NCBI GenBank assembly: GCA_023228325.1
Contig: JALOBK010000001.1
Location: forward strand, 1,094,133 to 1,158,132
DNA length: 64,000 bases
Direction of reading: 5' to 3'
Source of the DNA: a bacterium
GTDB taxonomy: Bacteria > Auribacterota > UBA6266
In this document: positions 17,008-61,347 of the stretch, piece by piece
Layout: each line of letters starts with the position of its first letter
How positions within the stretch are numbered: the stretch's first letter is position 1
Translations under genes and position numbers: made by a program
The notes under the pieces: model-generated
Database searches by the model: none
Told to the model about the DNA's origin: nothing
What the model saw: the letters and a program-made list of their open reading frames with translations, nothing else

Positions 17008-17253
17008 ATGAAAAAAATAATTCAAATCCTGGGCGGGAACAGTTTTGCTTTGTTTGTATTTGTTCTATTGTTATCGTTTTTAAACTGGCCCATTTTATCT
17101 TCTCTGGATAATCTGAGTAGCGGCGGCGCCTACCTTTGTATTTATGCTGTATGGTTAACCATTGCGCTGCTTGCGCTGATTGTCGGGCTGAGCTTTGAGG
17201 GCCCGCCACCTTCAGGTAAAGGCAAAAAAGAAGGCGAAGGTAAGAATGTTTGA
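17008..17253 (+). CDS. Small two-TM membrane protein preceding SLC5-sensor
   Basis: Two hydrophobic helices; stop overlaps ATG 17246 of the next gene. Confidence 0.7.
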   Translation: MKKIIQILGGNSFALFVFVLLLSFLNWPILSSLDNLSSGGAYLCIYAVWLTIALLALIVGLSFEGPPPSGKGKKEGEGKNV

Positions 17254-20302: not shown

Positions 20303-20315
20303 CACAAATAATATT

Positions 20316-37948: not shown

Positions 37949-37970
37949 ATAAACGGAGGGAGGAAAACAG

Positions 37971-39436: not shown

Positions 39437-41245
39437 ATGAAGAAAGCTTTTATATCCGTTATTTTAGTTTGCGTCGTCCTGTCGGTTTGTTTTGCCGCCG
39501 CAAGAAAATCAAAATTCAGCGGCAGGGATACCGAAGGCGTTGAAAAAACAACGTTGGAAGAAAGCCGGCGGATTGCTGAAATACCGCAGGATCAGGATAT
39601 AAAAGCCGAAGAGCCGGAGATGCCGGGCTCCTATGTCAAAAAAGCATGGGACAGCCCGGGCCTGTGGGTTGTAGGGACCGACGGTAAAAGTTCGATTGTG
39701 ATAAATCCGTGCGAATCCGGTTACGGACAGGGGCTTGAAATAAAGTATGAGCTCAAAAAAGGGGGCGGTTGGGTACAGTTCAACAAAAAGATATCCTCCG
39801 GTTTTTCCGAAAAAAGACCTTTCGCCTTTTTGATCAAAGCGAAAGCGGCCGGAGATATGGAGATAAAATTTATAGATAAGGACGGTTCGACATTCTGGAG
39901 AAAAATAAAACTGGACAATAATTATAAGGATTGGCAACGCATTGTAGTATACAGCGATACCCTGGAATATGCGTGGGGGGGCGATGATAATCTTGACGCT
40001 CTTTCGGAAATTTCTATCGCGTTTTCGGGAAGGGGGAAGGGGACGGTTTGGCTTGACGAGACAGGGTTTTGGAAAGAAGGACTTCCCGCGTCTTTTCCGC
40101 CTTCCGGGCCCATTATTGACCCCGACAGCGGACTTCCGGGCATAGGAGAGAGGCAGAGAAGATCGGAAAAACTTATACCTGAAGAGACACTTGTCATGGA
40201 ATGGCTTAAAGTCATCCAGGATACATCCTCTCCCGAAAAACAGCTCCTGCCTTCAATGGAGGGCAATCAGGCGCAGACTTTCAATAATGCGCTTGTCGCC
40301 ATGGCATTTATACTTAAGGGAGAAAAGGAAAGGGCGGAGAGGATACTCGATTTTTTCTCTGATATGACCTTTGAAGCAAATCCATGTCCGTTAATACAGA
40401 ACTTTTTCTATAAAAGCGAACCGAGAGGGTTTTTCCAGTTTGTCGTGCTTGCCGAATCAGGCGGAACGCCCGCGTATCATAACCCCGGCTCCAGTGACAG
40501 GTGGATGGGAGATATGGCATGGCTTCTTATCGCGTATAAATACTATGAGAAGGCATATTCTTCCGACAGGTATAAGAAGATAACGGTGCTTTTGAAGGAG
40601 CTGCTTAAATCGTGGTATAAGGCGGAAGACAGCGCCAGCGGTTATGTCCGGCACGGATGGCGCAGCGGCGACAGCAGCCTGCATGAAAACCATGGCCACC
40701 CGGAAGGCAATATTGATTGTTATGCCGCTTTTCTTTTATGCGGGGAAACCGATTACGCTAAAAAAATCAGAAAGTGGCTGGATAAATCAGTAAAGGGAAA
40801 AAGCCTTCCTCTCGATTTATATACATGGAGAGTGCTTGCGTTCGGCAGTGATTATGCCGGCCTGCTGAATATCCCCGAATATGACCTGAGATACCGGAAG
40901 ACGGTGGATTTTAACGGGAAGAAAGCCATGGGCTTTTATCATTCTCCGGATATAGAAATAAATAATGTCTGGCTTGACGGGACAGGGCATATTGCCTGCG
41001 CCTTTATTTCCTGCGGAGACAAACAAAGAGGATATTTTTACGCGAATGAGATGGATAAATTCATAATAAGCAGAAAAATAGATAATATTACGCTTAAAGC
41101 ACTTCCTTATACATCCGATAAATCGGGCGGCTTCGAATGGGTAAGACAGGACAGAGGTTTTATATCCGTTGCCGCGTGGTATATATTTGCCAAAAACGGT
41201 TTTAATCCCCTGACGTTGAAACAGACAGCGGTTGAATCGCAGTAG
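39437..41245 (+). CDS. Exported protein: CBM11/CIA30-like domain + (alpha/alpha)6 glycosidase-like domain
   Basis: Signal peptide; beta-sandwich (YELKKGGGW...WQRIVV...GTVWLDE); helical domain with TFNNAL, GDMAW, EGNIDCYA, WLDGTG, LPY, GFNP. Confidence 0.6.
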   Translation: MKKAFISVILVCVVLSVCFAAARKSKFSGRDTEGVEKTTLEESRRIAEIPQDQDIKAEEPEMPGSYVKKAWDSPGLWVVGTDGKSSIVINPCESGYGQGLEIKYELKKGGGWVQFNKKISSGFSEKRPFAFLIKAKAAGDMEIKFIDKDGSTFWRKIKLDNNYKDWQRIVVYSDTLEYAWGGDDNLDALSEISIAFSGRGKGTVWLDETGFWKEGLPASFPPSGPIIDPDSGLPGIGERQRRSEKLIPEETLVMEWLKVIQDTSSPEKQLLPSMEGNQAQTFNNALVAMAFILKGEKERAERILDFFSDMTFEANPCPLIQNFFYKSEPRGFFQFVVLAESGGTPAYHNPGSSDRWMGDMAWLLIAYKYYEKAYSSDRYKKITVLLKELLKSWYKAEDSASGYVRHGWRSGDSSLHENHGHPEGNIDCYAAFLLCGETDYAKKIRKWLDKSVKGKSLPLDLYTWRVLAFGSDYAGLLNIPEYDLRYRKTVDFNGKKAMGFYHSPDIEINNVWLDGTGHIACAFISCGDKQRGYFYANEMDKFIISRKIDNITLKALPYTSDKSGGFEWVRQDRGFISVAAWYIFAKNGFNPLTLKQTAVESQ

Positions 41246-41298
41246 AGGCAATACCTTCCGATAATCTTTTTCCGTTTTATTGGAAAAATCCTTCCGAG

Positions 41299-41336
41299 AT
41301 GATATAATTTTAAATTAAATTTTAATTTTATATCAT
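41299..41336 (+). promoter_or_regulatory. Extended -10 promoter overlapped by dyad symmetry, upstream of the glucan operon
   Basis: TGA-TATAAT at 41300-41308; inverted repeat ATGATATAA(41299-41307)/TTATATCAT(41328-41336). Confidence 0.55.
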
Positions 41337-41340
41337 AAGG

Positions 41341-44300
41341 TTGATAATGAGCATATTGCGTTTTGTCCGGCAGGCAACCCAAAAGGTGTTTTTTATTTAT
41401 GTCTTTTTCACTGTCTGTCTGCCGGTATCTTTTTCGGAAGACGGCGGGATACAGGATGAAATCGCTTTTCTTGAAAAAGTTGCCCTCGGCAGCGGACCCC
41501 ATGTCATAGACGGCATAGACTATAACGACCTTTCCATACAGGATGCGATAAAAAGGCTTTATGAAACAGACAGGGAAATCGCCATACAGAAATTTATAAT
41601 AAAGCAGGCGGAATTAGAGATTAAAAAGACAAAAGTATCCGCGTTTTTCCCGACAATTACCGCTGTGGCCGGAATAAGCGCTCCCGTAGACCTTTTTTAT
41701 GAAATAAGCAACGCGAGAGGCGCTTATCTGGGCCAGCGCCTGAACATAGCGTATAAATTCGACTCGGACCTTCTTGACCGTATAAATGCGGTGGAAAGAA
41801 ACAGGGAAACTGAATTAACGGCATTAATTTCCACATTTAAAGACCGATTTATAACACTTATGGAAACATACCTTAACCTCTCGCTGTCGCAGAAGGAACT
41901 GGTTGTTTGCGTTGAAAGTTATAAAGAAGCCAAAAGCCAGCTTGAAAAAATGAGGAAAGACCCTAAATATACACGGTTGGACATTTTAAAAGCTGAATAC
42001 AATATAACCCCTTTTTTTAAAGAGGCTCTTGCCGCCTGCAAAAGATACAAGGATGTGCAGAGGGATATTAAAATTATCCTGGGCTTTGACGGATATGAAA
42101 CCCTTATAATAAAAGTTTCCGATTTTCCCGAGACCCTTGAAGAAGCCAGGAACATGGTTTTAGATGAGCACCTGCGTCAGCCTGAATGCAGCATCGATGT
42201 CCTGAAAAAACAATATGAACTCGCGAAAGCCGAAACAAAATTAGATTACCGCCCTCTGCTTGAGCTTATCGCGGCGTCTACGGGAACGATGGAACAGGAT
42301 ACGATCAAAGATACACCCGCGACTTACAGAGCCACGTCTTCGCTGGTATTGAATCTTTTCGTGACCGATTTCGGTTATTCCGACAGCTGTAAAAAGTTCA
42401 GCAGGGTTAACGCCGATATAGCCGAAGCGAATGTCCGGGTGGAAAATGATGCTATAGAGAGGGATAATTTCGAGAGAAACAGCAAAATCAGGGAATTTTC
42501 CACCGCATTCGAGGCAATTACCGAATTTATTGCGGGAACAGAGGAAATCGTTGCGTTAATGAAGGAAAGGATAGAGCTTCCAATAGAAGAATTGCTTAAA
42601 AAGAATGAGCAGCTTTTGACCGCAAGACTGCTTTTGCGGCAGCTGCTGAGAGATTACACTTATAATTACATGATGATTTCCAGGGAGAACCCGGAAGAAA
42701 CACTTTCTTCTCCCCCATTCCAAAACATGACATTCGAAGATATCCTTGACCTGGCGGAAAGTAATAAGACGCCGGAAGAACTTGCAATGGAAAAAAATGT
42801 TGAACTGCAGATGATTAACCTTAAAATGGCCAGATGTTTCAACAACCCCGTTCTGAAAGGCGGGGTAGCCGTTGAAAACGAATCTTATGCCACCGGGGAG
42901 AAAACCAATACCACAAAAGCGTTTATAAGCGTCGAAGGCAAATTTTTTGATATAGGCCAGCAATATATGATAGAGGAGGCAAAAGCCAACCTTGAAGCGG
43001 CAAAAGATAGATTACAGATTTACAGGAACAGGAAGTATATTGAGCTGATAAACAACTTTGTCAAGATTATCCAATATAAAAGACAGACGGAATTCATTCA
43101 GAAAATCATGGGATTGAAAGAATCCGTTATTGATGATATGAGTGAAGATAAAAGCGGAGAATACCCCAAATATGAAGCAATAAATATCAAACCCCTTGTA
43201 TTGGAACAGCTCGAAGCGAACATTAACCTTGCAGGGGCGGAATGCAATCTGTTCATCTGTGAATATAACCTGAAGAAATTAGCCGGTATACCGCTAAGCG
43301 AGAAGATATCGCTTCAGGAAGAGCTGTTATTCGACGGGGAGAGCGGGACGGAGAAATTTCTTGATACAATCAGAAAAAAAATACTTCCTTTCTACGATTC
43401 CGGAGCTGGTATAAGCGCGGCATTGAATACCGTGAACGCGTTTAAGGCGGCGGAGATAAAGCAAACCGCATTCCGGGGTTTTAGCTGTCAGTTCCTTACA
43501 GAGTTCAGGGGAGAGGACCTCAGGGGTTTTAGAAATCCCGACATGATAACCGCTTTTATCTGTTCGGTCCCCTTCGGAGGCAATGATATAAGGAACATAG
43601 AAAAGTCCGGGCAGGAGAAAAACAGGTTTGATGCGGAGCTTGAATATGCGGAGGCGCTTAAAGAACTTGATGAAATGAGAACAACTGTCGGAATCAGATC
43701 CAGAGAAGATAAACTGTCCCTGAGAAGGATGAAACTTGACAGGCTCAACCTTGAAGCCCAGCACAGGCTGACAGAGAAGCTTGTGGAACTCGGGACAAAA
43801 CAGAAGAGAGAACAGATGGAATCCGAAATGAGGCTTGTCGCGCTTGACATTCAGATGGATACGGCTCTTCAGGATTATATTTACAACGAGTCTTTAAACG
43901 GGTTTCTTTCCGAAATGGACGAGAATATTTTTCAAGACAGAGGGACTTTCATAATTTCCGGGTTGCCGAACGCGCTTGCCCTTGCCATGGAAACGAGCGA
44001 TGAATTGAAAAGCCTGAAAAACAAGCTTGGCTCTGAAGAAGATATAATGAATTATATAAATTCGTTTTATTTCTCCGGAAGCGTTAAAACCAATTACGTG
44101 GAAGAAAAGATAAAAGGGGAGGCCGGGAAGGAAACCAAAATAGAGTCGTTTGTTTTTATCGGGACAATAGATGCCGAAGTCAATTTCATCAGCAGCCTGA
44201 TGAAAAAAGAACAGGAAATGAAAGTCGAAATGGGCAAGCTTGAAGTCGAAAGGGCAAAATTTGACATCGCGCAGGATGTAATAGGAGCCTATACCGATTA

Positions 44301-45312
44301 TCTTAAATCAATGGCGGTCTTATCCGCGGTCAATGAAAGATATTATAAGGAAAAAGAAACACTCGACAGCATAGAGGAACAGATGAAGTCCGGGATAAAA
44401 ACACGGATGGAGTATTTAAAACAGGAACAGGTCATAAGCCTGATTCAGGCGAAACTCCTTGATTCCAAAGAAACAGCCGACAGCAATAAAAAACACCTTG
44501 AAATCGCGGTGGGTTCTCTCGACCCCAGATTTTCGGTAATGAACCTTGAGATATTCGATAAAGACAGAAATGTCATTATACCGACAGATCCCGAAATGAT
44601 AAGATTGAAACTTGACCGGGAAATTGACGCTGTCAGGGAATCCCTTGTCGGCCCGCTTATTATAACCGAATCGAAATACGGGGAATTTTCGGAAGAAGCA
44701 TCGAAGTACGCGACCAGGGCGGCAGCCAAAAGAATAAGGTCGCTGTTAATAAGCGTTAATTATTCTTATCTCACCAATTCGCTTTCCGAGATAGGCGATT
44801 TTGAGGAAGAAGTGCTGGACCTGCCTTTGCTTACCGAGGAATCAGTCCAGGAGTTTAAGGAATTTGTGAATGCAAGCGCGTCCCTGGTGCTTTATGACCC
44901 GGGAACGGGGTTGTCCGGCAAGATTGAGTCCGTTGAAGAAAAAATCACGGCTTTGAAAGCGCAGGATGATATCATCGAAAGGGTACAGGGCGCTCAGATG
45001 CTGCTTGATACTTATGATACGGCTTTACGGGATTTTAATTATGCGGTAAAAAACCTTTCCGGGATTGAGCACGAAATGGAGAACAGGTTTGACGACATAA
45101 GGAGAACGGGGAAAATGGACCTTACGGAAGAGCTGAAAGTGCTCGGCATGCTTCTCCAGATGAAGATAGAGAGAATAGAGTCTTTCTATGGGATAGTCGC
45201 GGCATCCAACCGGATTGATCAATACCTCAGGAAATATGTTAATAAGGGCTTAGACGAGATATTGCAAACGGCGGAACCAAAAAAAAATGAAGATATTGCA
45301 TTTGCCGAGTGA
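41341..45312 (+). CDS. Large TolC/OEP-family outer membrane protein, apparently three tandem TolC-sized units
   Basis: Signal peptide; OEP-like starts at about aa 63, 463 and 874; amphipathic helices alternating with short beta strands; start may be ATG 41347. Confidence 0.65.
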   Translation: MIMSILRFVRQATQKVFFIYVFFTVCLPVSFSEDGGIQDEIAFLEKVALGSGPHVIDGIDYNDLSIQDAIKRLYETDREIAIQKFIIKQAELEIKKTKVSAFFPTITAVAGISAPVDLFYEISNARGAYLGQRLNIAYKFDSDLLDRINAVERNRETELTALISTFKDRFITLMETYLNLSLSQKELVVCVESYKEAKSQLEKMRKDPKYTRLDILKAEYNITPFFKEALAACKRYKDVQRDIKIILGFDGYETLIIKVSDFPETLEEARNMVLDEHLRQPECSIDVLKKQYELAKAETKLDYRPLLELIAASTGTMEQDTIKDTPATYRATSSLVLNLFVTDFGYSDSCKKFSRVNADIAEANVRVENDAIERDNFERNSKIREFSTAFEAITEFIAGTEEIVALMKERIELPIEELLKKNEQLLTARLLLRQLLRDYTYNYMMISRENPEETLSSPPFQNMTFEDILDLAESNKTPEELAMEKNVELQMINLKMARCFNNPVLKGGVAVENESYATGEKTNTTKAFISVEGKFFDIGQQYMIEEAKANLEAAKDRLQIYRNRKYIELINNFVKIIQYKRQTEFIQKIMGLKESVIDDMSEDKSGEYPKYEAINIKPLVLEQLEANINLAGAECNLFICEYNLKKLAGIPLSEKISLQEELLFDGESGTEKFLDTIRKKILPFYDSGAGISAALNTVNAFKAAEIKQTAFRGFSCQFLTEFRGEDLRGFRNPDMITAFICSVPFGGNDIRNIEKSGQEKNRFDAELEYAEALKELDEMRTTVGIRSREDKLSLRRMKLDRLNLEAQHRLTEKLVELGTKQKREQMESEMRLVALDIQMDTALQDYIYNESLNGFLSEMDENIFQDRGTFIISGLPNALALAMETSDELKSLKNKLGSEEDIMNYINSFYFSGSVKTNYVEEKIKGEAGKETKIESFVFIGTIDAEVNFISSLMKKEQEMKVEMGKLEVERAKFDIAQDVIGAYTDYLKSMAVLSAVNERYYKEKETLDSIEEQMKSGIKTRMEYLKQEQVISLIQAKLLDSKETADSNKKHLEIAVGSLDPRFSVMNLEIFDKDRNVIIPTDPEMIRLKLDREIDAVRESLVGPLIITESKYGEFSEEASKYATRAAAKRIRSLLISVNYSYLTNSLSEIGDFEEEVLDLPLLTEESVQEFKEFVNASASLVLYDPGTGLSGKIESVEEKITALKAQDDIIERVQGAQMLLDTYDTALRDFNYAVKNLSGIEHEMENRFDDIRRTGKMDLTEELKVLGMLLQMKIERIESFYGIVAASNRIDQYLRKYVNKGLDEILQTAEPKKNEDIAFAE

Positions 45313-45324
45313 TTTTAGAAATTT

Positions 45325-48300
45325 ATGAAAAGTAAAAAAATAAGTTATCTTTTTTCAGGTGTTTTATTTGTCCTGCTTACGGCGGCTTTTTGCGATTTAT
45401 ATGTTTTTGCCACCGAGGCCCGCAGGAAAACCGCAGTCAGCAAATGTGATATTATCGCTAATCCGCTTGCCGATGTGACGCAGAGGGATGAAATGTTAAG
45501 GCCGGGGGAAATAACTTCGTTTCTTCTTGAGTGCCGGTATCCCGTTACAGGTCTTATCCCTACTGAAATATCAACTGAAGGGGTAGCCAATATACACAGA
45601 GGCCAATCTTCAACGTACGCCTCCGCCGTTGCCCAGCAGATATTGCTCATGAGCGGGAAGACCGAAGAAGCGGAAAAGATGGCCGAGACAATGAGAAGCC
45701 TCGAAGAAAAAAGGAATATCCCCAATACGGTTGACCTGGTAAGCGGCTTGAGTTCCGATTTTTACACTACCGCAGGCCCCAATGCTTTTTGGGGGATCGG
45801 TTTTTTGAAAGAATACCATTTTACAAAAGAGCAGAAATGGCTTGATGCGGCCGTTAAAATCGCGGATTTTCTCATATCCCTGCAGAGTATTGACGGAGGA
45901 ATAAGAAAAGATCCCAATCCTTTGAATGCCGAGTACCGCGTGAAATCCACTGAAGAAAATATGGACTGTTATGCTTTCTTTAAGATGCTTTTCAGTGTTA
46001 CGGGGGATAATAAATATGAAAGGACTGCCGGAAAAATTCTTCAGTGGCTCGCGCAAAGCGGTGTTTACAACAGGAAACAGGGTTTTTTTTCCATAGGCAC
46101 TTTCAACAATGTTGTTGACCCGACATACGGGCTTGATGTCAACGCGCTGGCTATTATTATACTTGGGCCCGAAATGCTTAATGCCGGGGAAGGAAAGGTT
46201 GTATTCGAAGGCCGGGATACAGCCGGAAAAGTCGTTGAAAGTTTTGAAAAAGCGCTTGTTACCGTTGATTATATGCATCCTGACGGAACGGAAATAAAAG
46301 GGGTTACGGGTTTTGATTTCACCGATAAATTAGGGAGAGGAGGCAGGCAGGAAATAATAACCCCCGAGTTCAGTTCACAGACAGCGCTCGCGTATATGGT
46401 GATGGCTGTTTATGAATTGAACAGGAATAATACTCAGAAAGCCGTATCTTATTCGCATAAGGCAAAGGGGATACTTGAAAATCTTTCCATAATGGCTGCC
46501 CGGAGAGAAGAAACAGCGTCTCTTCCTTATGCGACTCTTCCGAGGATAAGGAGATTCGGTTTTGATAACTGGTTTACTCCGTCGGCGGAAGCGAATATTT
46601 CTTCCTGCTGGGTTGCTTTCCCTCTTGCCGGATACAACCCGTTTGAATTGGACGGGTTTAAAATAAGGGATTCCATCGAGAGAATTGCGCCATGGGTTGT
46701 TGATTTTGGAAAGATAAAGGCATCTCTGAATATGTTCCCGCAGTTTATCGAGACTAACCCGCCGCCGGAGATTGCCCTTTCGGCCTACAGGGAAGCGGTC
46801 CGCGAAGACGATGTGCCTGAAAGGCCGTTTATATATTACAAAATACTTTATGAAAAGTCGCTTATGGATTATCTTCTCGCGAAATCAAGGCTTGAATCGG
46901 TGCTGATGACGAGTTACAGCGCATGGGTTGACGGTTTGATAGATATATCGGAAGCGGGGTATGATGCGCTGGAAATCACCCGGGACGGGAAGCTGGTAAA
47001 GAAAAAAACATATGAGATTTCTCCCGACATCAGGAAAATACTTGAGGAAGAATACCTTTATTTCGATGAATTGACCGGCAGCCAGTGGATGAAAGCCATT
47101 AAATATAACCTGGACATTGATTATTCAAAAGGCACCAATTACGCTTTCGAAGTGGACGGGGATTATAATATTGTAAGGCAGTTCAGGACAGAACGGGATG
47201 TCCCGCAGTCAAACAGGGAAGATTTAAAAGATAATACGGTGGAATTCAAGTCGGTACGGGGGCTGCCTGAAGGGCATATTATCATGAGATATTGCACCGC
47301 CGTGGAACTCGATGAAAACAACAGGGTGGTGGATGCCTATGAAAGCGTCGACGACCTGCCCGCTATGGTGGCGAAAGTGCCGATAAACGAGCAGACGTAT
47401 ATAAGATTCAATAATGCGGAGGGGCAGGAAAGAAGAAAATTGCTTGAATCCGGGATAATCCCTTTTTTCGACGGAACACTTGCCATGCGCGAAGAAGGCA
47501 ATTTTTACTATACACAAGTTCTTGCCCTTGACACGTCCCGCCGCCTGTTTTCAAGGACTTATTCAAGAGACAGGGGCACCGATATTGTCGTTGGGACAAG
47601 GTTGCTGCTGGCTGACTGGGAAGTTGACAAGAGAACAAAAATCAATTCGGTGAAATATGAAAAAGGCCTTGTTGACGGTATGGCTATGACGATTAAACGC
47701 CCGTTGATAGGGGAAAAACCCCTTAAGACAGAACCCTTATGGATATTGCTCGGGAAAGATGCCCGTGACGAGGAAATACAGAACCTGAAAAATATCCAGG
47801 CGGGTTTGATTGAGAAAATCGACAGGGAAGCGGACGCGCAGGTCAGGCAGTCTTTTATCAAGGAGTTTGACCGTCTTAATACCGAGATGTTCTGGCTTGA
47901 CGAGAAAGGATATCTTCATACCATAAGCCATGGGTTAAAGGGAGCCGAAAAACTTTTAAAAGAAATAGAGAAGGCGAAAATCAAAGCGGATGCGTCTCCA
48001 AAAGAATACTTTTCCGTTTTAGGGAGAGATCTCGGCGGAAGAGATTACCGTGATGTGTACGGCCTTGTATGGATAGGCGTAAGGGATAAGAAAAGCGGGA
48101 ATATGCTGCAGGTCGAAACTTATGATATAGCGGGAAACCTGAAGTTCATTCTTGCGGGGAATATCCATATTGACCCTCTTACCAAGAATGTTATCGCGGA
48201 GACCAGAACGGATATTTTATACGATGAAGATTCCGGTCAGATGATAGGAAGCCATACATATGCGATAGATATAGAGGGTAACTGGGTTACGGATATTTCG

Positions 48301-50310: not shown

Positions 50311-50357
50311 TTTCCTGAAATACATGAAAAAAGGGAAAAACTTTAAGAGAAAAAAAT

Positions 50358-53300
50358 ATGACGGAAAAATCAAAACTTCAGATTATATTTAAGGAAAATG
50401 TGGCAAAAGAATTCAGGCCTCTTATAAACGAGGCATTAGCCGTGTTGGGCGCAAGCCCGGATAGCTACAGCGCGTGCGTCAATGCCATAATAACCAGGAT
50501 TTTCTCAAAAGCGGATTTTAACGATATCAGCCTTAAGTCCTTATATGGAATAGAACTTTCTGAATATGAGAAATGGTCTTCCAGATGCGGGGACCGTTAT
50601 AAATGGACGGATACAGGCTTTAAAAGCCCCTTAAAAAGCGATGATTTTAAAAGTGACATCCATGATATAAAAGGGCATTTGCTGCTGGTTGTCTTATTCA
50701 GGATAGTGTTTGAAGAATCAATGGAATTTAAGGCGACCTGCCCTTCCTTCCGTTACTTCCTCTTCGAAAAATCCCTGAAGATGTTTTCGGAGCAGAAAGA
50801 AAAAGCCATTCTGGACGAAATAAAAAATGATACATGGGCCCTTCTGGAAGCCCTTCGACCGGGGTATTCAAAAGATTTAACCAAGGAAAAGAAAATTACT
50901 TTTGAAGATATAGAAAGCCTGTTCAGGGGTGATAAGAGGGAATTTCTGAAAGATTTTAAAAATCTCAGCGGCCGTCCGAAGGAGGAAAAATTAAAATATC
51001 TTGTTTCCGGAAATCCGGATGCCACAGTCCGCAGCGCCGGAAAAGCTGAAAATTTTGTATGGCTGAAAACATTTAAAGATAAACAGGGATTGATACCGTT
51101 TATTGCGAACATCAGGAAGCTGTGGATTCCCTTAATCCCTCTTTTTGCCACGGTGTTTGCCGTCGGCATTGCAACCGGTCTTAATAAAAATATATTTATT
51201 ACCCAGTCAAGCCGGTTTGCATCTCTGCTGGCGGGGATGTTTGCTCCTGTGATGGAAGTTCCCGTTTCCGTCATAGTTTTCTTTCTTGATATATCTTTGT
51301 GCGCATTGCTGGGCGTTTTTCTCAGCCTGCTGCTGCTGCAGGCAACATTGGGGGGAAGGTTCCCGGATGACAGAAATCTGTCCCGGTCCGGCGCTGGGGA
51401 AGCGGTCAGGAAATTCAAGGTCTTGTATGTATCTTCGGTGTATATATGGGGTGTTTTCAGCATATTCGTAATAAGGTGGACGGCATTTGTAATCCAGAAA
51501 ACAAGTTTCCGGCATACAGGATGGGAGATCTTTATCGATGGCGGGGCAGCTCTCCTGACGGTGTTATTTGTATTGGCAAGTTTCCAGTCCTTGTTCTATG
51601 TGGTTATTTCGTTTTTTGCATATTTGCAGGGGAAGAAAGAAGGTGTGGGGCAGGTAGTCCATTGGAGCCAGATACAAGCAAAATTTGAAGAAGCGGGAAA
51701 AAGATTCGGGAAAATAATGGGAATTAAAACCGGCTTAAACGATAAATACGGATGGCGGCATTACTGGAATTGTTTTGTAAGCGATATGTTCGAAAATTAC
51801 AAGATAAGCAAAACAGAGAGAGATAACCTTTTGCTTGGCGAAAAAAATGTTTCCGGCGCCGGTTTTGAAAAACCCGCAAATGATGAAGCCGGCGACAGGA
51901 TGAAACGGGTTATCAACAGCTGGCTTATGGATATGCCGAAGAACCTGCCGTGGGAAGAGTTCCCTGTTTTGACCGTGCTCATTACGGCTTTTAATGAGCC
52001 TGTCAGTATATTGTACGAAGAACTCGGCGTGGTTGAAAAAGGGGCCGGCGAAACAAGGCTTAACCATTTGATTGACCGGTATGGCGAAGACTGGAATGAG
52101 TTCGTTGACAGGATTGATGAGAAAGAGCTGAGGAATATAATATCAAAGGATGAATTAAAGACCGTTTCCGGATTCCAGAAATTGCCCGGCAACATCCCCG
52201 GCGCCCTAAAAGAGAAGATAAGGATATGGGCTACGCTTATGGCCCAGCCTATAGAAAGGACAGTAATCGAAACAGCCAAAATAAGGGACGCTTTTAAAAT
52301 TAACGCGCAGATCGCGTTTCCCGGGATTGAGCCTTTCGAAATAGACAGGCTTGTGGATGATAAACTTCAGATACTTCTTAATTACGAAGGTTATCACAAG
52401 TCTGTTACGAGAGATGAGGACAGGGTGTCCCTGAGAAAACTTATGGGCAGTTACCGGCATCTTGAAGTTTACTGGGGACCCGTCGAAGACTCCGATTATG
52501 TATCCGGCGCGGGCCGGGATATTGTTAAGTATTTGAAAAATTCCGATTGCGGTCTCCATAAATATAATCCGGAAAAAGGCGCGATAGAACTTATAGAGAC
52601 AGCTCCTTATACGGTTCCTCCGAAAAAGGGGAAACCCACGGGTTCAAGCCAGTCATTGTCTTTTGTAAAAGGGGATTTTATACTTTTCTTTGACGCTAAT
52701 GCTTCCGTGAGGATTGAAGAGGCTGTGAAAATACCGCTTGCGTTTGCCGAATTTAAAAATGACGAATCACTGAGCGAAGTCCTGTTTTCCGAATACATAT
52801 ATACAAAAGGTTATTCATGGGTCGCTCAGGCCATAGGGTTTAACGACGAAACGTTTACCACTGTTACCCAGAGGGCCATGAACATATTCCATGCCTGCGG
52901 TTTCTACGGGCACAGCGCCGTTATAAAGACAGAGGCGATAACCTGTTCGGGAGGGTTTACCCAGGATTATATTTCGGAGGATATTCTGCTGGCCGTTCTG
53001 ACATGGCTTAAAGGACTTAGGACAACACACAGGCAGTACATATATTTCGGCAAAGGAAGAGAGATATCATTTTATTCGACGCTCAGTCCTTTTGCGAAAT
53101 GGGCGGCCGGGGCTTCCGAAGTAGGGTTAGGCCGTATTATGGCGGATGTCCTGTCTTCTCCCAGGATACATTTTGCGCAGAAATTCATGCTTATGTTCGG
53201 TTTTTCATTTTATTATCATCTGCCTCTTGTGCTGGTGATAAATTTTATTTATATGTGGTTTATGGTTTGCTGGGGTGTGAACGCATTTATGAGCGTTCCT

Positions 53301-54701
53301 TTCCCTTTTATTTTTGTGATACTGGGCTTGCTGTTTAACCAGTCGATTACAAGCATGGGCCTGGTATACCTGATAGAAAGATTCGGAGTAACAGGCACAC
53401 CGGGGGAATACCTTAAACTTGTAGCCAAAAATTTCTTCCTTTACACAGCGGCGATACCGAGTTATGCCCTTGGTTTTATAAAGGGTTTGAGAGGAAAGTT
53501 CAAGCCCTCCATAAGCAGTAAAGGCTGGAACCTAGGGCATCTTTCGTTCAGGGATATTTGGGGAGAAGACAGGATTTATTTCAATATTATTTTCGCCACC
53601 ACACTGATAGGCGTCCCACTGCTGTTTGTGCTTGTCTCATTGGAAAGCCTGCCTTTCTGGGTAAGCCCTTTTATCGCCCTGTTTCCTCTCGCGGCGGTTT
53701 TAATGCTTTATTATCTGGGAAAATTCGGCGCCTGGACGGGGATAGGTTTTTTAAAAGTGCTCAGGGATGACATTGTTCCGGAAGGGGATTTTTCCAGGGT
53801 TTCGGCAGTCAAAATTCAGATGATATTTTCCATAGGGCTTACGGCATTTATAGGCGTGGGGTTTGTTCTGTGGGGCGTGGTCTTCTCTTCTTTTGCCAGC
53901 AAGCTGCTGTTTGCTTTATCATTGATATATCTCACCCCGCCGGTATCTTATATTTTCGTGCCTATGCTTGCCCATTCCCAGCCTTTTGCCATATTTAAGG
54001 AAGTCACCGAATCCAGGCTGTGGAATCTGCTGTTGATTCCTCTTGTTTATCTCGGCACCGTTATGACTTTTATATTGATAGCGGTAAACATAATAAGGCT
54101 TGACCTGGAGGTGACGGTATATCTTTTGCTTGCGGTGTCTTTTCTTGCCGGCTGGTTTTTGCTGAAAAGGAAACTGAGCGGATACAGCTCCCTTAACAGG
54201 TGGCTTAAGAAAAATTTCGCCGATTATAAGAAAGGGAAAGCCGTTTACCGGTCCGCAGTGCAGGATGATATCTATTTTAAGCATCAGGAATTGCTGAGGC
54301 TGCCAAGGGAAAAAGGGTATGAAAAATCGATTTATATTCTGAAAATCATACTCCTGGCCGGGATTCCCCTCGTTTTCTTCCTGGATATTATTTCGGAACT
54401 TGGCAGGGGGTATTACAGGCAATGGTTCTGGTATGTCATAGAAGTCATGATATTCGCCTGTTTTTTCCTTAATTTGAAAAGCACGGAAAAAGACCGGAAC
54501 CTGTTAAAGGATTTAATAAGTGTGATTACGTTTGCGGATATAAATAAAATAAATAGGGAAAATTTTCAGATAGAGAATGTATGGCAGAAATTAGGAAATA
54601 ACTACAGAGAATATCTTGCGGGTTCTTATCGCAGTTCTGACGATGCAAAAAAGGCTCTTTTGGATTTTATCAGATATGTAAATCACAATGTAAGTAAGTG
54701 A
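50358..54701 (+). CDS. FKS/callose synthase-like (GT48) 1,3-beta-glucan synthase homologue
   Basis: Ordered GT48 motifs: WNCFV..ISKTERDNLL, PANDEA..MDMP, PVLTVL..NE, DWNEFVDRI, WATLMAQ..RTV, GKP..KGDFILFFDAN..EEAVK..AEF, YGH, ISEDI, YIYFGKGRE; TM blocks on both sides. Confidence 0.85.
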   Translation: MTEKSKLQIIFKENVAKEFRPLINEALAVLGASPDSYSACVNAIITRIFSKADFNDISLKSLYGIELSEYEKWSSRCGDRYKWTDTGFKSPLKSDDFKSDIHDIKGHLLLVVLFRIVFEESMEFKATCPSFRYFLFEKSLKMFSEQKEKAILDEIKNDTWALLEALRPGYSKDLTKEKKITFEDIESLFRGDKREFLKDFKNLSGRPKEEKLKYLVSGNPDATVRSAGKAENFVWLKTFKDKQGLIPFIANIRKLWIPLIPLFATVFAVGIATGLNKNIFITQSSRFASLLAGMFAPVMEVPVSVIVFFLDISLCALLGVFLSLLLLQATLGGRFPDDRNLSRSGAGEAVRKFKVLYVSSVYIWGVFSIFVIRWTAFVIQKTSFRHTGWEIFIDGGAALLTVLFVLASFQSLFYVVISFFAYLQGKKEGVGQVVHWSQIQAKFEEAGKRFGKIMGIKTGLNDKYGWRHYWNCFVSDMFENYKISKTERDNLLLGEKNVSGAGFEKPANDEAGDRMKRVINSWLMDMPKNLPWEEFPVLTVLITAFNEPVSILYEELGVVEKGAGETRLNHLIDRYGEDWNEFVDRIDEKELRNIISKDELKTVSGFQKLPGNIPGALKEKIRIWATLMAQPIERTVIETAKIRDAFKINAQIAFPGIEPFEIDRLVDDKLQILLNYEGYHKSVTRDEDRVSLRKLMGSYRHLEVYWGPVEDSDYVSGAGRDIVKYLKNSDCGLHKYNPEKGAIELIETAPYTVPPKKGKPTGSSQSLSFVKGDFILFFDANASVRIEEAVKIPLAFAEFKNDESLSEVLFSEYIYTKGYSWVAQAIGFNDETFTTVTQRAMNIFHACGFYGHSAVIKTEAITCSGGFTQDYISEDILLAVLTWLKGLRTTHRQYIYFGKGREISFYSTLSPFAKWAAGASEVGLGRIMADVLSSPRIHFAQKFMLMFGFSFYYHLPLVLVINFIYMWFMVCWGVNAFMSVPFPFIFVILGLLFNQSITSMGLVYLIERFGVTGTPGEYLKLVAKNFFLYTAAIPSYALGFIKGLRGKFKPSISSKGWNLGHLSFRDIWGEDRIYFNIIFATTLIGVPLLFVLVSLESLPFWVSPFIALFPLAAVLMLYYLGKFGAWTGIGFLKVLRDDIVPEGDFSRVSAVKIQMIFSIGLTAFIGVGFVLWGVVFSSFASKLLFALSLIYLTPPVSYIFVPMLAHSQPFAIFKEVTESRLWNLLLIPLVYLGTVMTFILIAVNIIRLDLEVTVYLLLAVSFLAGWFLLKRKLSGYSSLNRWLKKNFADYKKGKAVYRSAVQDDIYFKHQELLRLPREKGYEKSIYILKIILLAGIPLVFFLDIISELGRGYYRQWFWYVIEVMIFACFFLNLKSTEKDRNLLKDLISVITFADINKINRENFQIENVWQKLGNNYREYLAGSYRSSDDAKKALLDFIRYVNHNVSK

Positions 54702-54714
54702 AAGGAGATGTAGA

Positions 54715-55290
54715 ATGAGAGTTGTATTTTTCTTTATTTGTTTGTTTTGCATTATTAATGTGTGTGAATCTGATGTAATAAATACAAAATATTATAGATT
54801 TATTTTGCCTGACAATCTTGATATTGTATATTCAAAACCAGATATTATTACCAAAGAGGAAGAAGAGACAGGCGCTTTTATAAAAGATAGCAAAGAGGGT
54901 TTTATAGATATTGTTTGGCGTAGCGGCAGAGATGAGATTGCTTTTAGATTAGAATCTATGCCGGCAATGAAAGCTTCCCTGGAAGATTTAAAAAGCGTTG
55001 TTCAGTTAATTTATGATAAAGATAAAGATCCCAATATTTGTGAAATTGACTTATTCGAGTTGAAAGATATTAATCTTGGAGTTTTTAAAGGTTTCGAAAT
55101 AAAAAAAGTAGGAAAACCGATTGGTTTAAATCAGCCAAAACATGCATCCGTTGATTTTTGTATTACAGATGGAGAGCTTGTTTGGATGGGATCTCTTTAT
55201 CGGATTGGGAAACCTTTGCTTCCCGGCGGAGGAGATTTGTCCATAGCCAATTTTATATTAGAAAACGCCAGAAGAAAAAGTAAATATTAA
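54715..55290 (+). CDS. Hypothetical exported protein, last gene of operon
   Basis: AAGGAG SD 13 bp after the GT48 stop; signal peptide; visibly AT-rich. Confidence 0.7.
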   Translation: MRVVFFFICLFCIINVCESDVINTKYYRFILPDNLDIVYSKPDIITKEEEETGAFIKDSKEGFIDIVWRSGRDEIAFRLESMPAMKASLEDLKSVVQLIYDKDKDPNICEIDLFELKDINLGVFKGFEIKKVGKPIGLNQPKHASVDFCITDGELVWMGSLYRIGKPLLPGGGDLSIANFILENARRKSKY

Positions 55291-55297
55291 TTATAGA

Positions 55298-56680
55298 TTA
55301 AATGCTGTTTGTTTCCTCGATGTATTCGTGGTATACAAGCCAGTCGTCCGCGATTTTCCTCATCATCCAGTACAGGCTGCTTAAGTCGGCCCCTATTTCG
55401 CATTCAAACTCGATGTTCCTGCGTCCGCTCTTGAACCGCGCGAACAGGTAGTTGCTCATATCCCTTCTTAAAAAGTTACATCTTTTTAACGAATAAAACA
55501 GGGAATCGCGGGCTTTTGAATAGTTCATCAGCCTTATATAGTCGCAATTGACGAATATGCAGTTTTCGTAATCCCCTGAGAGCGTTACGGTGTCGCAGTC
55601 GAGAAATACGCAGTTTTTCACTTTCCCGAGCGCCTGTATTTTTTTTGACCTTATGAAACAGTTTGAATTGCCGTTTTTGGGAACATAGCTTTCTTTTATA
55701 AGTTTCCAGAAAAGTTTTGCGTATGACTCTATGCTTGAAGACCAGTCATCCCAGTATCCTTTTGCGACGGCGGCCCCAACGCTTATATTATATTTATCCA
55801 GGCACTTTTTCATGGCAAGCTGGCAGTGGGAAAGCTTTCTGGGGTTTAATGTCAATGCCTCGCATACAAGCTTGTTAAATGCCCATTCGGAATTATTAAG
55901 GTCGTTTATAAACTCGGAGTTTTCTCTTTTGGAGCGGAAAAGGTCCACCGCTTTTTCGAGCTTGTTCAAATCCTCAATTGTTGTATAAAGCTGGAAGGTA
56001 TTGGCTAAGGTTGTTGTATTAGTGAATTTAGGTATCTTTCTCGCGTCGCTTTCTTTTTCGGTAAAACGGGCGATTTCCTTGTTTTTGTCCAGTTTTATTA
56101 CGCCCAGGGAATTAATTGCTCTTTTGACCGGAACGGGAGCGACAAGCATGGAAAAGGAATGATTCCTCAGGGATTTTTCAAGCGCTTTCATGTCAATTTC
56201 GGTGTAGTTGAAATATTGGTCGATAGGCATGATTATGACCGAATTCTTTATAAGCGGAAGACTGTTTGCTATGCATAAGAGGTTTAGTTTGATCGATTTT
56301 CCCATGGGAAACCTTATGGTTGATTTAAGGGGAAAACCGGCTTCGTATGAAAGAGGGAACATTCTGGTGGCCAGCCCCGCGTCATGGATAAATATGATGC
56401 AGTCATAAGATGCCATTTTTTTCCTGGATGTTCTTGAAAGCAGGCGGGAATATGCGGTTAGATAGCCCACAAGATTTCCCCGGATGCCCGCGGGTTCGAG
56501 AAGTTGGAGCGCATCAACCTTTATTTTTTTGTGATAACGGCCGGCAAGCGCTTTTTCCAGAGACGATATGTCTTCTTCAAAACGGATTTTTTTATATGAG
56601 TTGAATACAACCAGGCATTTGCTGGCCGGTTTATAGTTCAAAGACGCCTCCTTTATGATGTATTTAAAAAAACTGGACAA
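55298..56680 (-). CDS. Divergent sugar-phosphate nucleotidyltransferase (GlgC/NTP_transferase-like)
   Basis: HDAGLATRMFPLS (cf. AGGxGTRLxPLT), LGVIKLDKNKEIARFTEK (cf. FGV..D..GRI..F.EKP), GYWDDW, C-terminal NCVF/NCIF beta-helix-like repeats; start uncertain. Confidence 0.65.
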   Translation of the reverse strand: MSSFFKYIIKEASLNYKPASKCLVVFNSYKKIRFEEDISSLEKALAGRYHKKIKVDALQLLEPAGIRGNLVGYLTAYSRLLSRTSRKKMASYDCIIFIHDAGLATRMFPLSYEAGFPLKSTIRFPMGKSIKLNLLCIANSLPLIKNSVIIMPIDQYFNYTEIDMKALEKSLRNHSFSMLVAPVPVKRAINSLGVIKLDKNKEIARFTEKESDARKIPKFTNTTTLANTFQLYTTIEDLNKLEKAVDLFRSKRENSEFINDLNNSEWAFNKLVCEALTLNPRKLSHCQLAMKKCLDKYNISVGAAVAKGYWDDWSSSIESYAKLFWKLIKESYVPKNGNSNCFIRSKKIQALGKVKNCVFLDCDTVTLSGDYENCIFVNCDYIRLMNYSKARDSLFYSLKRCNFLRRDMSNYLFARFKSGRRNIEFECEIGADLSSLYWMMRKIADDWLVYHEYIEETNSI

Positions 56681-60086: not shown

Positions 60087-60126
60087 TTTGCCTTTATAAT
60101 ATACTTTTTACTGGGGGCGCCGTAAT

Positions 60127-61236: not shown

Positions 61237-61247
61237 GATTAAGTATA

Positions 61248-61297
61248 TTGACAGAAAAAATTTTTTAATGTATATAGATACCAGTAGCAAACCAGTA
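61248..61297 (+). promoter_or_regulatory. sigma70-like promoter plus candidate operator upstream of GH94
   Basis: TTGACA (61248) -17bp- TATATA; TACCAGTA (61279) / AACCAGTA (61290), 11-bp period. Confidence 0.6.
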
Positions 61298-61347
61298 ATT
61301 TATTTTAAATATCACATGTTCTAACATCGAATCGAAGAAAGGTACTT

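What the first reader, a model, noticed from the sequence alone, without database searches (positions are those of the whole stretch)
39437..56680. Candidate complete beta-glucan synthesis and export machine built around the GT48 enzyme
Seen: 41341-55290 is four co-oriented genes with gaps of 12, 47 and 13 bp, behind an extended -10 promoter. They encode a TolC-like OM channel, a giant IM-anchored periplasmic protein, the GT48 synthase and a small exported protein. A CBM+toroid protein precedes them and a nucleotidyltransferase converges on them. Known: synthase-dependent EPS systems (Bcs, Alg, Pel, Pga) combine an IM synthase, a periplasmic co-polymerase or scaffold, a periplasmic glycosidase and an OM pore. 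Inference: the same logic built from different parts (FKS-like synthase, YD-repeat scaffold, TolC exit), an architecture I do not know from any described EPS system.
Basis: inference. Interest (0 to 1): 0.9.

Follow-up and report, generated by a model that had tools for sequence, protein, structure and literature searches.

The report
Bacterial FKS-like glycan synthase export module
A bacterium of the candidate phylum Auribacterota carries a conserved, undescribed gene set pairing a relative of the fungal and plant beta-1,3-glucan synthase with a giant periplasmic partner, a triple-length TolC-like outer-membrane protein and a sugar-activating enzyme, which looks like a new way to make and export a polysaccharide.

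Summary
In detail: the ORFs, the 12/47/13-bp gaps, the TGnTATAAT promoter-like site and the protein assignments are all there.

The core is conserved. In Auribacterota, Omnitrophota and an Elusimicrobia-labelled MAG the order is always: TolC-like gene, giant periplasmic protein, GT48-like synthase, then a convergent GlgC-like gene. Outside Auribacterota the giant protein and the synthase are one ORF of about 3,100 aa, and an orthologous dCache-HAMP-GGDEF cyclase lies beside the cluster.

The synthase passes Pfam's PF02364 threshold and keeps 11 of 15 functional FKS1 residues. The convergent protein folds like ADP-glucose pyrophosphorylase. The 1,321-aa outer-membrane protein contains three TolC-protomer-like units, so it may be a single-chain pseudo-trimer. 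That is inferred; the structure model failed.

- There are no YD repeats.
- The 191-aa ORF is a strain-specific insertion.
- The upstream 602-aa protein is lineage-specific.
- The GH76-like domain lacks the GH76 catalytic Asp pair.

Best reading: a synthase-dependent, probably c-di-GMP-linked, envelope-spanning polysaccharide machine built from unprecedented parts. The product and the export route are untested. I found no paper describing it.

The parts
41280..41308 (+). Promoter-like site TTGGAA-17-TATAAT with TG extension, upstream of g1
   Evidence: Consensus scan, 10 of 12 matches with TG; sequence read. Not evidence of function. The promoter type of this phylum is unknown.
39437..41245 (+). 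g0: 602-aa secreted protein. The C-terminal half shares motifs with the g2 toroid domain. It is a lineage-specific accessory, not part of the conserved core.
   Evidence: Signal-like N-terminus. No Pfam or PDB hit. EGNIDCYA / EENMDCYA and W..G(F/Y)NP motifs are shared with g2 (E 0.005). A homologue is present in the 87%-identical relative L029 (590 aa). The position is occupied by SecY in L001 and by HTH/MORN genes in L033.
41347..45312 (+). g1: 1,321-aa exported outer-membrane-factor (TolC/OEP)-like protein made of three protomer-like units (nt 41512-42726, 42727-43950, 43951-45309)
   Evidence: PF02321 at 30.9 bits. Each third of the window protein hits OEP on its own, two of them below Pfam's 22-bit cut-off. 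Thirds of the homologues score 21-38 bits. 11 of 11 homologues hit OEP, best E 2.2e-19. Family profile against PDB: CmeC, OprJ, VceC. Stacked-unit profile: CmeC 1.5e-5, TolC 2.7e-5, and 15 of 16 hits are OMFs. Each unit starts with an OMF-type LSxxDAxxLA motif. The AF2 model failed (pLDDT 35.8).
45325..50310 (+). g2: 1,661-aa extracytoplasmic protein. It has an N-terminal signal or anchor, a GH76-like (alpha/alpha)6 domain (about nt 45500-46700), about 1,150 aa of unknown fold, and a C-terminal TM anchor (nt 50209-50265).
   Evidence: Hydropathy. PF03663 at 31.2 bits in 9 of 9 homologues. PDB alpha-1,6-mannanases at E 9e-7 over aa 156-243. Fused in frame to the synthase in L001, L008-L015, L017, L026, L036, L038, L039, P0005 and P0006.
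50358..54701 (+). g3: 1,447-aa GT48 (FKS/callose-synthase)-like processive glycosyltransferase. It has a cytoplasmic N-domain, about 4 TM segments, a GT-A catalytic core (nt 51876-53276), then multiple TM segments.
   Evidence: PF02364 at 97 bits. FKS1 at E 1.3e-9 and BcsA at E 4e-4. 11 of 15 FKS1 functional residues are identical (residue list from PMC10499315). DxN, YGH, ED and GKxR are invariant in 19 relatives. TM segments.
54715..55290 (+). g4: 191-aa ORF with a signal peptide. It is a strain-specific insertion and not part of the conserved module.
   Evidence: Absent in L003, L004, L005 and L029-L031, where g5 follows the synthase within about 15-60 bp. DNA alignment shows the indel. No homologue in any locus. 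Local G+C is 38.5%.
55298..56641 (-). g5: GlgC-like sugar-1-phosphate nucleotidylyltransferase-fold protein, a conserved convergent partner. The ORF extends to 56680, but homologues start at the Met 13 codons in.
   Evidence: 50-55% identical in Omnitrophota-labelled loci and always convergent on the synthase. AF2 pLDDT 81, pTM 0.84. Foldseek: ADP-glucose pyrophosphorylases at E 5e-12 with about 440-470 aligned columns. Invariant R106, K119, D154, F206-x-E208-K209. Weak NTP_transferase and GlgC HMM hits.

Best explanation
This is a conserved, envelope-spanning, synthase-dependent polysaccharide synthesis and export module.

Proposed steps:
1. In the cytoplasm, g5 (GlgC-like) makes an NDP-hexose.
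2. g3, a GT48/FKS-like processive glycosyltransferase with a BcsA-like GT-A core and TM channel, polymerises the sugar and threads the chain across the inner membrane.
3. g2 is tethered next to the synthase by its C-terminal TM helix, as BcsB is to BcsA, and is covalently fused to it in most lineages. It receives the chain in the periplasm. Its GH76-like toroid domain binds, trims or remodels the chain, and the remaining 1,150 aa bridge the periplasm.
4. g1, a triple-length TolC-like protein, probably forms a single-chain 12-stranded barrel with a helical tunnel as the exit duct.

In the non-Auribacterota lineages an orthologous dCache-HAMP-GGDEF cyclase next to the cluster suggests control by c-di-GMP.

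Shown here: the homologies, motif conservation, topology, synteny and fusions.
Inferred: co-transcription, physical docking of g2 to g1, passage of glycan through g1, and the nature of the polymer. A beta-1,3-glucan is the default only by analogy to eukaryotic GT48.
For: - GT48 assignment and intact catalytic residues.
- Topology is consistent with the fusion: g2 ends 14 aa after its TM, and g3 begins with a cytoplasmic domain.
- g2 and g3 are fused in P0005 and P0006 and in about 14 fetched loci.
- g1 sits directly upstream in all 15 or more loci that reach that far, with a 4-bp overlap onto the fused ORF.
- The reverse search from g1 finds g2 in 5 of 5 informative loci.
- g5 is convergent in about 15 loci and is more conserved (50-55%) than g3 (44%), g2 (43%) or g1 (28%).
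- g5 has the fold of ADP-glucose pyrophosphorylase and keeps an FxEK motif.
- g1 belongs to the OMF family and has three units.
- Orthologous cyclases (48-50% identical) flank the cluster in different positions in L001 and L002 versus L033 and L036-L038.
- A distant relative fuses a GH72/GH-A-like domain to its GT48 core.
Against: - There is no experimental or expression data.
- The g1 structure prediction failed, and the Foldseek hits from it are not significant.
- No known OMF conducts a polysaccharide made by a processive synthase.
- No PilZ or other c-di-GMP receptor was found, and the window has no cyclase homologue.
- The GH76-like domain lacks the catalytic Asp-Asp.
- The g5 glycine-rich loop is divergent (DAGLATR), and the inactive paralogue GMPPA is also among the structural hits, so g5 could be regulatory.
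- Identity to FKS1 is low, so neither linkage nor sugar can be read from homology.
- Two loci have the cyclase where g5 sits elsewhere.
Confidence: 0.6

Rival explanations
1. The same machine makes a different polymer: a glycan other than beta-1,3-glucan. This could be another linkage or sugar, for example a mixed-linkage glucan, a mannan, or an ADP-glucose-derived chain.
For: - g3 scores only 97 bits against PF02364, and three FKS1 pocket residues differ (D1080K, K1172N, N1220S).
- The partner enzyme resembles ADP-glucose and GDP-mannose pyrophosphorylases rather than GalU.
- The periplasmic domain resembles alpha-mannanases.
Against: - From my own knowledge, all characterised GT48 enzymes make beta-1,3-glucan.
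- A distant relative carries a GH72-like (beta-1,3-glucanosyltransferase family) domain, though that hit overlaps a generic GH-A TIM-barrel hit.
- The GH76 catalytic pair is absent.
Confidence: 0.3
2. The polymer is not exported. g2-g3 build a periplasmic or wall-associated glycan, as a structural layer or osmoprotectant, and g1 acts as an anchor or scaffold rather than a conduit.
For: - g2 is very large and could itself be the destination or organiser of the chain.
- No adaptor protein of the HlyD/MFP type is present.
- There is no precedent for glycan passing through an OMF.
Against: - g1 is tightly coupled to g2-g3 (4-bp overlap) across phyla.
- The OMF family fold is a channel.
- Flanking PEP-CTERM and CBM_4_9-like secreted proteins suggest a surface matrix.
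Confidence: 0.15
3. It is a host- or prey-contact device of small, possibly epibiotic, PVC-group bacteria. The glycan forms a tether, plug or sheath at the contact site rather than a biofilm matrix.
For: - The family is concentrated in Omnitrophota, which the literature describes as host-dependent or predatory and rich in giant surface proteins (bioRxiv 10.1101/2023.11.21.568195).
- More distant GT48 cores sit inside ORFs longer than 6,800 aa.
Against: - Auribacterota are inferred to be free-living fermenters (PMC9324843).
- Nothing in the locus is specific to cell-cell contact.
- This reading concerns biological role and is compatible with the same mechanism.
Confidence: 0.12
4. The genes are neighbours without a common function.
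For: None beyond the lack of expression data.
Against: - Order and orientation are conserved at only 28-55% protein identity in several phylum-level labels.
- The genes overlap.
- g2 and g3 are fused in most lineages.
Confidence: 0.03

Closest known systems
Bacterial cellulose synthase complex (BcsA-BcsB-BcsZ-BcsC)
   Same: - A processive inner-membrane GT-A synthase that also forms the translocation channel. g3 also hits BcsA structures weakly, and FKS1 is described as BcsA-like (PMC10499315).
- A large periplasmic partner held by a single C-terminal TM helix.
- To my knowledge, in some species BcsA and BcsB are fused.
- A periplasmic (alpha/alpha)6 domain, as in BcsZ.
- A link to c-di-GMP signalling genes.
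   Different: - The synthase is GT48-like, not GT2.
- The partner is 1,661 aa, unrelated in sequence to BcsB, and encoded or fused upstream of the synthase.
- No PilZ domain was found.
- The outer-membrane part is an OMF, not a TPR-plus-16-strand porin.
- A dedicated GlgC-like gene is attached.
Eukaryotic GT48 beta-1,3-glucan synthases (fungal FKS1/GSC2, plant callose synthases)
   Same: - The catalytic core matches PF02364.
- 11 of 15 functional FKS1 residues are kept: E851, K1082, D1102, N1104, E1155, H1195, E1221, D1222, K1246, R1248, K1261.
- TM bundles lie on both sides of the GT domain.
   Different: - No FKS1_dom1 was detected, and Rho1-type regulation has no counterpart here.
- Different N- and C-terminal domains.
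- Operon context with periplasmic and outer-membrane partners.
- About 20-25% identity.
Tripartite TolC-dependent exporters (RND/ABC/MFS pumps, type I secretion, DevBCA-HgdD glycolipid export)
   Same: An OMF-family outer-membrane component is encoded together with an inner-membrane machine.
   Different: - No membrane-fusion/adaptor protein and no transporter ATPase or RND pump.
- The OMF is about three protomers long in one chain.
- The proposed cargo is a nascent polysaccharide.
Curdlan synthesis (CrdS-CrdA-CrdC of Agrobacterium)
   Same: It is the bacterial precedent for making a beta-1,3-glucan exopolysaccharide with an inner-membrane synthase.
   Different: - CrdS is a GT2 enzyme.
- None of its partners resemble g1, g2 or g5.
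ADP-glucose pyrophosphorylase (GlgC) and GMPPA/GMPPB
   Same: The two-domain fold (nucleotidyltransferase plus left-handed beta-helix) aligns over the full length, and the FxEK sugar-phosphate motif is present.
   Different: - 10-13% identity.
- The G-loop reads DAGLATR.
- It scores far below the GlgC equivalog cut-off (21.7 against 424.9 bits).
- It has a long helical insertion and tail.

Membership tests
CAZy GT48 / Pfam PF02364 (1,3-beta-glucan synthase) | Significant match to the family model above the curated threshold | tested here: met
   97 bits against a gathering score of 37.2, aa 507-973. FKS1 and GSC2 structures at E 1e-9 to 2e-8.
CAZy GT48 / Pfam PF02364 (1,3-beta-glucan synthase) | Active-site residues shown by mutagenesis in FKS1 (PMC10499315) | tested here: met
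   11 of 15 are identical: E547, K759, D779, N781, E812, H852, E874, D875, K899, R901, K914. The differences are D1080K, K1172N, E1173D and N1220S. DxN, YGH, ED and GKxR are invariant in 19 relatives.
CAZy GT48 / Pfam PF02364 (1,3-beta-glucan synthase) | Cytosolic GT domain flanked by TM bundles | tested here: met
   Hydropathy shows about 4 segments at aa 257-417 and multiple segments at aa 943-1345.
CAZy GT48 / Pfam PF02364 (1,3-beta-glucan synthase) | FKS1_dom1 N-terminal domain typical of FKS and callose synthases | tested here: not met
   No PF14288 hit in g3, whereas the eukaryote-type P0106 has it.
CAZy GT48 / Pfam PF02364 (1,3-beta-glucan synthase) | UDP-glucose-dependent beta-1,3-glucan synthesis | not testable with these tools
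   Needs an enzyme assay and linkage analysis.
Outer membrane factor (TolC/OEP, PF02321) | OEP repeat match above threshold | tested here: met
   30.9 bits against 22. 11 of 11 homologues match, best E 2.2e-19. The PDB profile hits are OMFs.
Outer membrane factor (TolC/OEP, PF02321) | Protomer of about 450 aa with two OEP repeats that trimerises | tested here: not met
   The protein is 1,321 aa with three protomer-like units, each hitting OEP. Full-length TolC/NodT models score 27-30 bits against cut-offs of 210-225.
Outer membrane factor (TolC/OEP, PF02321) | Alpha-helical tunnel plus 12-strand beta-barrel fold | tested here: inconclusive
   The AF2 model has pLDDT 35.8. Foldseek gives no hit at E <= 1e-3, although about half of the top 50 are OMFs.
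Outer membrane factor (TolC/OEP, PF02321) | Export signal | tested here: met
   Hydrophobic N-terminus KVFFIYVFFTVCLPVSFS followed by EDGG.
Synthase-dependent exopolysaccharide systems (Bcs, Alg, Pel, Pga) | Inner-membrane processive synthase with a membrane-anchored periplasmic co-component | tested here: met
   g3 plus g2, which are fused in most lineages.
Synthase-dependent exopolysaccharide systems (Bcs, Alg, Pel, Pga) | c-di-GMP receptor on the synthase complex | tested here: inconclusive
   No PilZ or other receptor hit. An orthologous GGDEF cyclase lies next to the cluster in L001, L002, L033 and L036-L038, but not in the window.
Synthase-dependent exopolysaccharide systems (Bcs, Alg, Pel, Pga) | TPR scaffold plus beta-barrel porin in the outer membrane | tested here: not met
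   No TPR or porin gene is present; an OMF-like gene takes that place.
Synthase-dependent exopolysaccharide systems (Bcs, Alg, Pel, Pga) | Periplasmic polymer-modifying hydrolase or lyase | tested here: inconclusive
   GH76-like toroid domains occur in g2 and probably g0, but the catalytic residues are unknown.
GH76 alpha-1,6-mannanase | Match to the family model | tested here: met
   31.2 bits against 25.9, but covering only 110 of 366 model positions. 9 of 9 homologues match.
GH76 alpha-1,6-mannanase | Catalytic Asp-Asp pair preceding the WW helix | tested here: not met
   The position upstream of the aligned AFWGIG is an invariant G151-P152-N153. That the Asp pair sits there in GH76 is from my own recollection.
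GlgC-type sugar-1-phosphate nucleotidylyltransferase | Nucleotidyltransferase domain plus C-terminal left-handed beta-helix | tested here: met
   AF2 pLDDT 81. Foldseek E 5e-12, prob 1.0, about 440-470 aligned columns to E. coli and A. tumefaciens enzymes. TM-scores are only 0.28-0.40.
GlgC-type sugar-1-phosphate nucleotidylyltransferase | GGxGxRL glycine-rich loop and FxEK sugar-phosphate lysine | tested here: inconclusive
   The loop reads HDAGLATR(M/L)FPL with the Arg kept. F206-x-E208-K209 and D154 are invariant. The mapping to GlgC residues is from memory.
GlgC-type sugar-1-phosphate nucleotidylyltransferase | Equivalog-level HMM score | tested here: not met
   TIGR02091 scores 21.7 bits against 424.9.
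RHS/YD-repeat proteins | Repeated YD motifs or PF05593 hits | tested here: not met
   No RHS hit in g2, in its pieces, or in 9 homologues. YD occurs 6 times against 5.0 +/- 2.1 in shuffles.

The most novel reading that the evidence does not exclude
Bacteria of the PVC-related candidate phyla (Auribacterota, Omnitrophota) hold a large, old radiation of FKS-like synthases, from which the eukaryotic GT48 beta-1,3-glucan synthases may derive. In these bacteria the synthase works in a new kind of trans-envelope glycan secretion system. Its exit duct is a covalently fused, single-chain pseudo-trimeric TolC, which would be the first OMF known to conduct a polysaccharide.
Probability: 0.3. Interest if true: 0.9.

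Novelty: new variant of a known kind. Interest (0 to 1): 0.8.

Why it matters
- GT48 enzymes are the target of the echinocandin antifungals and the makers of plant callose. They are treated as eukaryotic, and none of the papers my searches returned describes a bacterial system.
- A compact, operon-encoded bacterial relative with defined partners would give a tractable model for how FKS-type synthases start, extend and translocate glucan. It would also give a handle on where the family came from.
- Coupling a processive synthase to a TolC-like duct through a giant periplasmic protein would add a fifth architecture to the synthase-dependent exopolysaccharide systems.
- A single-chain triple OMF would be a new solution for building a TolC barrel.
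- It would also assign a function to conserved genes of 3,000 to over 7,000 aa in Omnitrophota, a phylum known for unexplained giant genes.

Tried and rejected
1. Structure prediction of g1 (aa 56-1255, four-sequence alignment) gave pLDDT 35.8. The follow-up Foldseek search gave no significant hit.
2. BLAST self-comparison found no internal repeats in g1 or g2. hhalign between the thirds of g1 was weak (best E 0.006). The three-unit reading therefore rests on separate OEP hits and on the stacked-unit profile.
3. The 'YD-repeat' reading was rejected.
4. GH76 enzymatic identity was rejected because the Asp pair is missing.
5. g4 was rejected as a component of the system.
6. g0 was rejected as a general component.
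7. g0 and g5 gave nothing significant in PDB sequence searches.
8. Rfam and tRNA scans of the window were empty.
9. The 19-sequence alignment was too divergent for the locus scan, so a closer 8-sequence alignment was used.
10. A UDPGP-like stretch I thought I saw in P0013 was not confirmed by Pfam.
11. There is no cyclase homologue in the window.
12. The literature searches found no description of the system.

Full report
**What is in the window.** The six ORFs of the finding are present as described: g0 39437-41245, g1 41341-45312, g2 45325-50310, g3 50358-54701, g4 54715-55290 (all +), and g5 55298-56680 (-). The gaps between g1, g2, g3 and g4 are 12, 47 and 13 bp. The g0-g1 spacer holds TTGGAA-17-TATAAT preceded by TG. 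No terminator-like site lies in the short spacers. An AAGG ahead of the ATG at 41347, together with the 1,321-aa length given by gene callers, makes 41347 the likely g1 start.

The closest relatives are MAGs labelled UBP3 and Candidatus Auribacterota. The window therefore comes from that phylum. It sits on a contig of about 2 Mb.

**The synthase, g3.**
- It scores 97 bits on PF02364 against a cut-off of 37.2.
- It matches the solved FKS1 and GSC2 structures at E about 1e-9, and BcsA weakly.
- I mapped the HMMER alignment onto the residues that the FKS1 cryo-EM paper mutated (PMC10499315). Eleven of 15 are identical. These include D1102/N1104 (D779/N781), E1221/D1222 (E874/D875), K1246/R1248 (K899/R901) and H1195 (H852).
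- The same motifs are invariant in 19 diverse relatives.
- Hydropathy places TM bundles on both sides of the catalytic domain.
- The FKS1_dom1 domain of eukaryotic enzymes is absent.
- An exhaustive HMMER search of 1.84 billion cluster representatives gave 417 hits at E <= 1e-3. The best are long bacterial-type proteins of 3,000-7,900 aa.

**Conservation of the neighbourhood.** I fetched 25 genome loci around GT48 relatives, contigs for individual homologues, and six metagenome loci found from the g1 side. Gene maps show the following.
- In Auribacterota-type relatives (proteins 70-95% identical) the order is g0, g1, g2, g3, then convergent g5, with no g4.
- In Omnitrophota-labelled MAGs, in bins labelled 'Planctomycetia', and in one Elusimicrobia-labelled MAG, g1 (24-29% identical) overlaps by 4 bp a single ORF of 3,065-3,121 aa. 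That ORF is g2 and g3 joined in frame (37-44% identical). It is followed by a convergent g5 (50-55% identical).
- The fusion also appears in the library proteins P0005 and P0006 and in L001, where I checked that no stop separates the two parts.
- The fusion fits the topology. g2 has an N-terminal signal or anchor segment and a single TM helix 14 residues from its end. g3 starts with a cytoplasmic domain.
- Every g1 homologue found independently has g2 next to it wherever the contig continues.

**The outer-membrane protein, g1.**
- It hits Pfam OEP above threshold, as do all 11 aligned homologues (best E 2.2e-19).
- Cut into thirds, each third of the window protein hits OEP, two of the three below Pfam's 22-bit cut-off. 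Thirds of two distant homologues score 21-38 bits, two of them with two stretches.
- The thirds begin at aa 56, 461 and 869, each with the LSxxDAxxLA-type start typical of OMF protomers.
- A profile built by stacking the units hits CmeC (1.5e-5), E. coli TolC (2.7e-5), OprJ and NodT. Fifteen of its 16 hits are OMFs.
- Ordinary OMFs are about 450 aa and trimerise (my own knowledge). A 1,321-aa protein of three such units would supply all 12 strands from one chain. This is an inference.
- The AlphaFold model from a four-sequence alignment failed (pLDDT 35.8). Foldseek on it gave only non-significant OMF hits.

**The giant protein, g2.**
- Only one region is recognisable. It is a GH76-like (alpha/alpha)6 segment, found in 9 of 9 homologues and matching alpha-1,6-mannanase structures at E 9e-7.
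- The residues upstream of the aligned helix are an invariant Gly-Pro-Asn. By my recollection GH76 has its catalytic Asp-Asp there. The family has its own invariant KSTEEN motif.
- The remaining 1,150 aa or so match nothing.
- The YD-repeat idea fails: there is no RHS hit, and YD is not enriched.
- g0 shares the E(E/G)N(I/M)DCYA and W..G(F/Y)NP motifs of this domain. It is therefore probably a free paralogue. It is found only in close relatives, not in L001 or L033.

**The convergent gene, g5.**
- Sequence models give only sub-threshold NTP_transferase and GlgC hits.
- With 16 homologues the AlphaFold model is good (pLDDT 81, pTM 0.84).
- Foldseek aligns about 440-470 columns to ADP-glucose pyrophosphorylases (E 5e-12), and also to GMPPA/GMPPB. 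TM-scores are low, 0.28-0.40.
- Invariant residues include the Arg of a divergent G-loop (HDAGLATR), a Lys, an Asp, and an FxEK motif like the sugar-phosphate site of GlgC (mapping from memory).
- It is the most conserved protein of the set.

**g4.** It is absent from all relatives, including ones whose proteins are 73-95% identical, where g5 follows the synthase within about 15-60 bp. A DNA alignment shows a replacement or insertion at the 3' end of g3. No homologue was found in any locus. It is a strain-specific ORF.

**A further partner outside this phylum.** A dCache-HAMP-GGDEF diguanylate cyclase lies immediately downstream of the synthase in L001 and L002. In L033 and L036-L038 it lies upstream of g1, with a MORN-repeat gene between them; in L033 a small HTH_17 gene was also called there. 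These cyclases are 48-50% identical over their full length, so they are orthologues despite the different position. The window has no homologue within its 64 kb. It does encode two PAS-HD-GYP proteins 20 kb upstream.

**Interpretation.** The architecture parallels the synthase-dependent exopolysaccharide systems:
- a dedicated nucleotide-sugar supply (g5);
- an inner-membrane processive synthase and channel (g3);
- a periplasmic partner anchored by a C-terminal helix, as BcsB is, carrying a toroid domain of the kind seen in BcsZ (g2);
- an outer-membrane exit (g1);
- in most lineages, a linked c-di-GMP source.

Every part belongs to a different family from the known systems. The steps shown are homology, motif conservation, topology, synteny and fusion. 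The steps inferred are co-transcription, g2-g1 docking, passage of glycan through the OMF, and the identity of the polymer. Beta-1,3-glucan is the default by analogy only. One distant relative that fuses a GH72/GH-A-like domain to its GT48 core is a weak hint in the same direction.

**Evolutionary note.** In a rough midpoint-rooted neighbour-joining tree of 76 catalytic cores, the sequences with an FKS/callose-synthase-type N-terminus form one cluster among many other lineages. That would fit a bacterial radiation older than the eukaryotic family. The tree has no support values, and the library carries no taxonomy.

**Novelty.** Full-text searches for GT48 or PF02364 with bacteria, for Omnitrophota with glucan synthase or giant glycosyltransferase genes, and for Auribacterota found no description of this system. 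Public records name the homologues 'glycosyltransferase family 2 protein' or 'hypothetical protein'. I class it as a new variant of a known kind, the synthase-dependent polysaccharide secretion systems, and rate it of high interest.

Noticed in passing
L001:13986-14030: The GT48 part of the fused g2+g3 ORF carries two in-frame TAA codons 13 codons apart. They align to Glu and Ser of the window protein. This could be sequencing error, gene decay or recoding.
   Followed up: partly
L004:2946-3129: In the 95%-identical UBA6266 relative the synthase changes reading frame near aa 1166-1209, and its C-terminal part is only 76% identical. The same end of the gene is replaced in the window next to the g4 insertion.
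   Followed up: partly
L016, L019, L020, L028 (whole loci): More distant GT48-like cores (27-33% identical) lie inside ORFs longer than 6,800 aa that fill entire 20-kb loci. Library hits reach 7,886 aa.
   Followed up: no
window 37382-38594 and 56895-57542: Small secreted paralogues flank the cluster on both sides. Two of them (37971-38594 and 56895-57542) are 29% identical to each other. The first has a PEP-CTERM sorting signal and a sub-threshold CBM_4_9 match; the second has a similar C-terminal hydrophobic tail but no Pfam hit. They may be glycan-binding surface proteins.
   Followed up: partly
window 17195-22763: Two tandem PAS-sensor HD-GYP proteins (c-di-GMP phosphodiesterase type). A CHASE2-cyclase gene lies at 2375-4384.
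   Followed up: no
window 57714-63729: Downstream block: a GH35/GH42-like beta-galactosidase, a GntR/LacI-type regulator, and a GH94 glycan phosphorylase. This may be beta-glycan salvage next to the synthesis cluster.
   Followed up: no
P0016 (library protein), aa 231-451: A GH72-like (beta-1,3-glucanosyltransferase family) / GH-A TIM-barrel domain lies N-terminal to a GT48 core that scores 318 bits. P0012 carries a cytidylate-kinase-like domain after its core.
   Followed up: no
L033:6363-7574; L036:8303-9547; L037:3354-4586; L038:8364-9596: A conserved MORN-repeat protein of about 410 aa sits between the linked diguanylate cyclase and the OMF gene in Omnitrophota-type loci.
   Followed up: partly
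window 12057-16810 (- strand): An ABC transporter operon with ABC_transp_aux and DUF4340 genes (GldG-like auxiliary components). It is unrelated to the finding.
   Followed up: no
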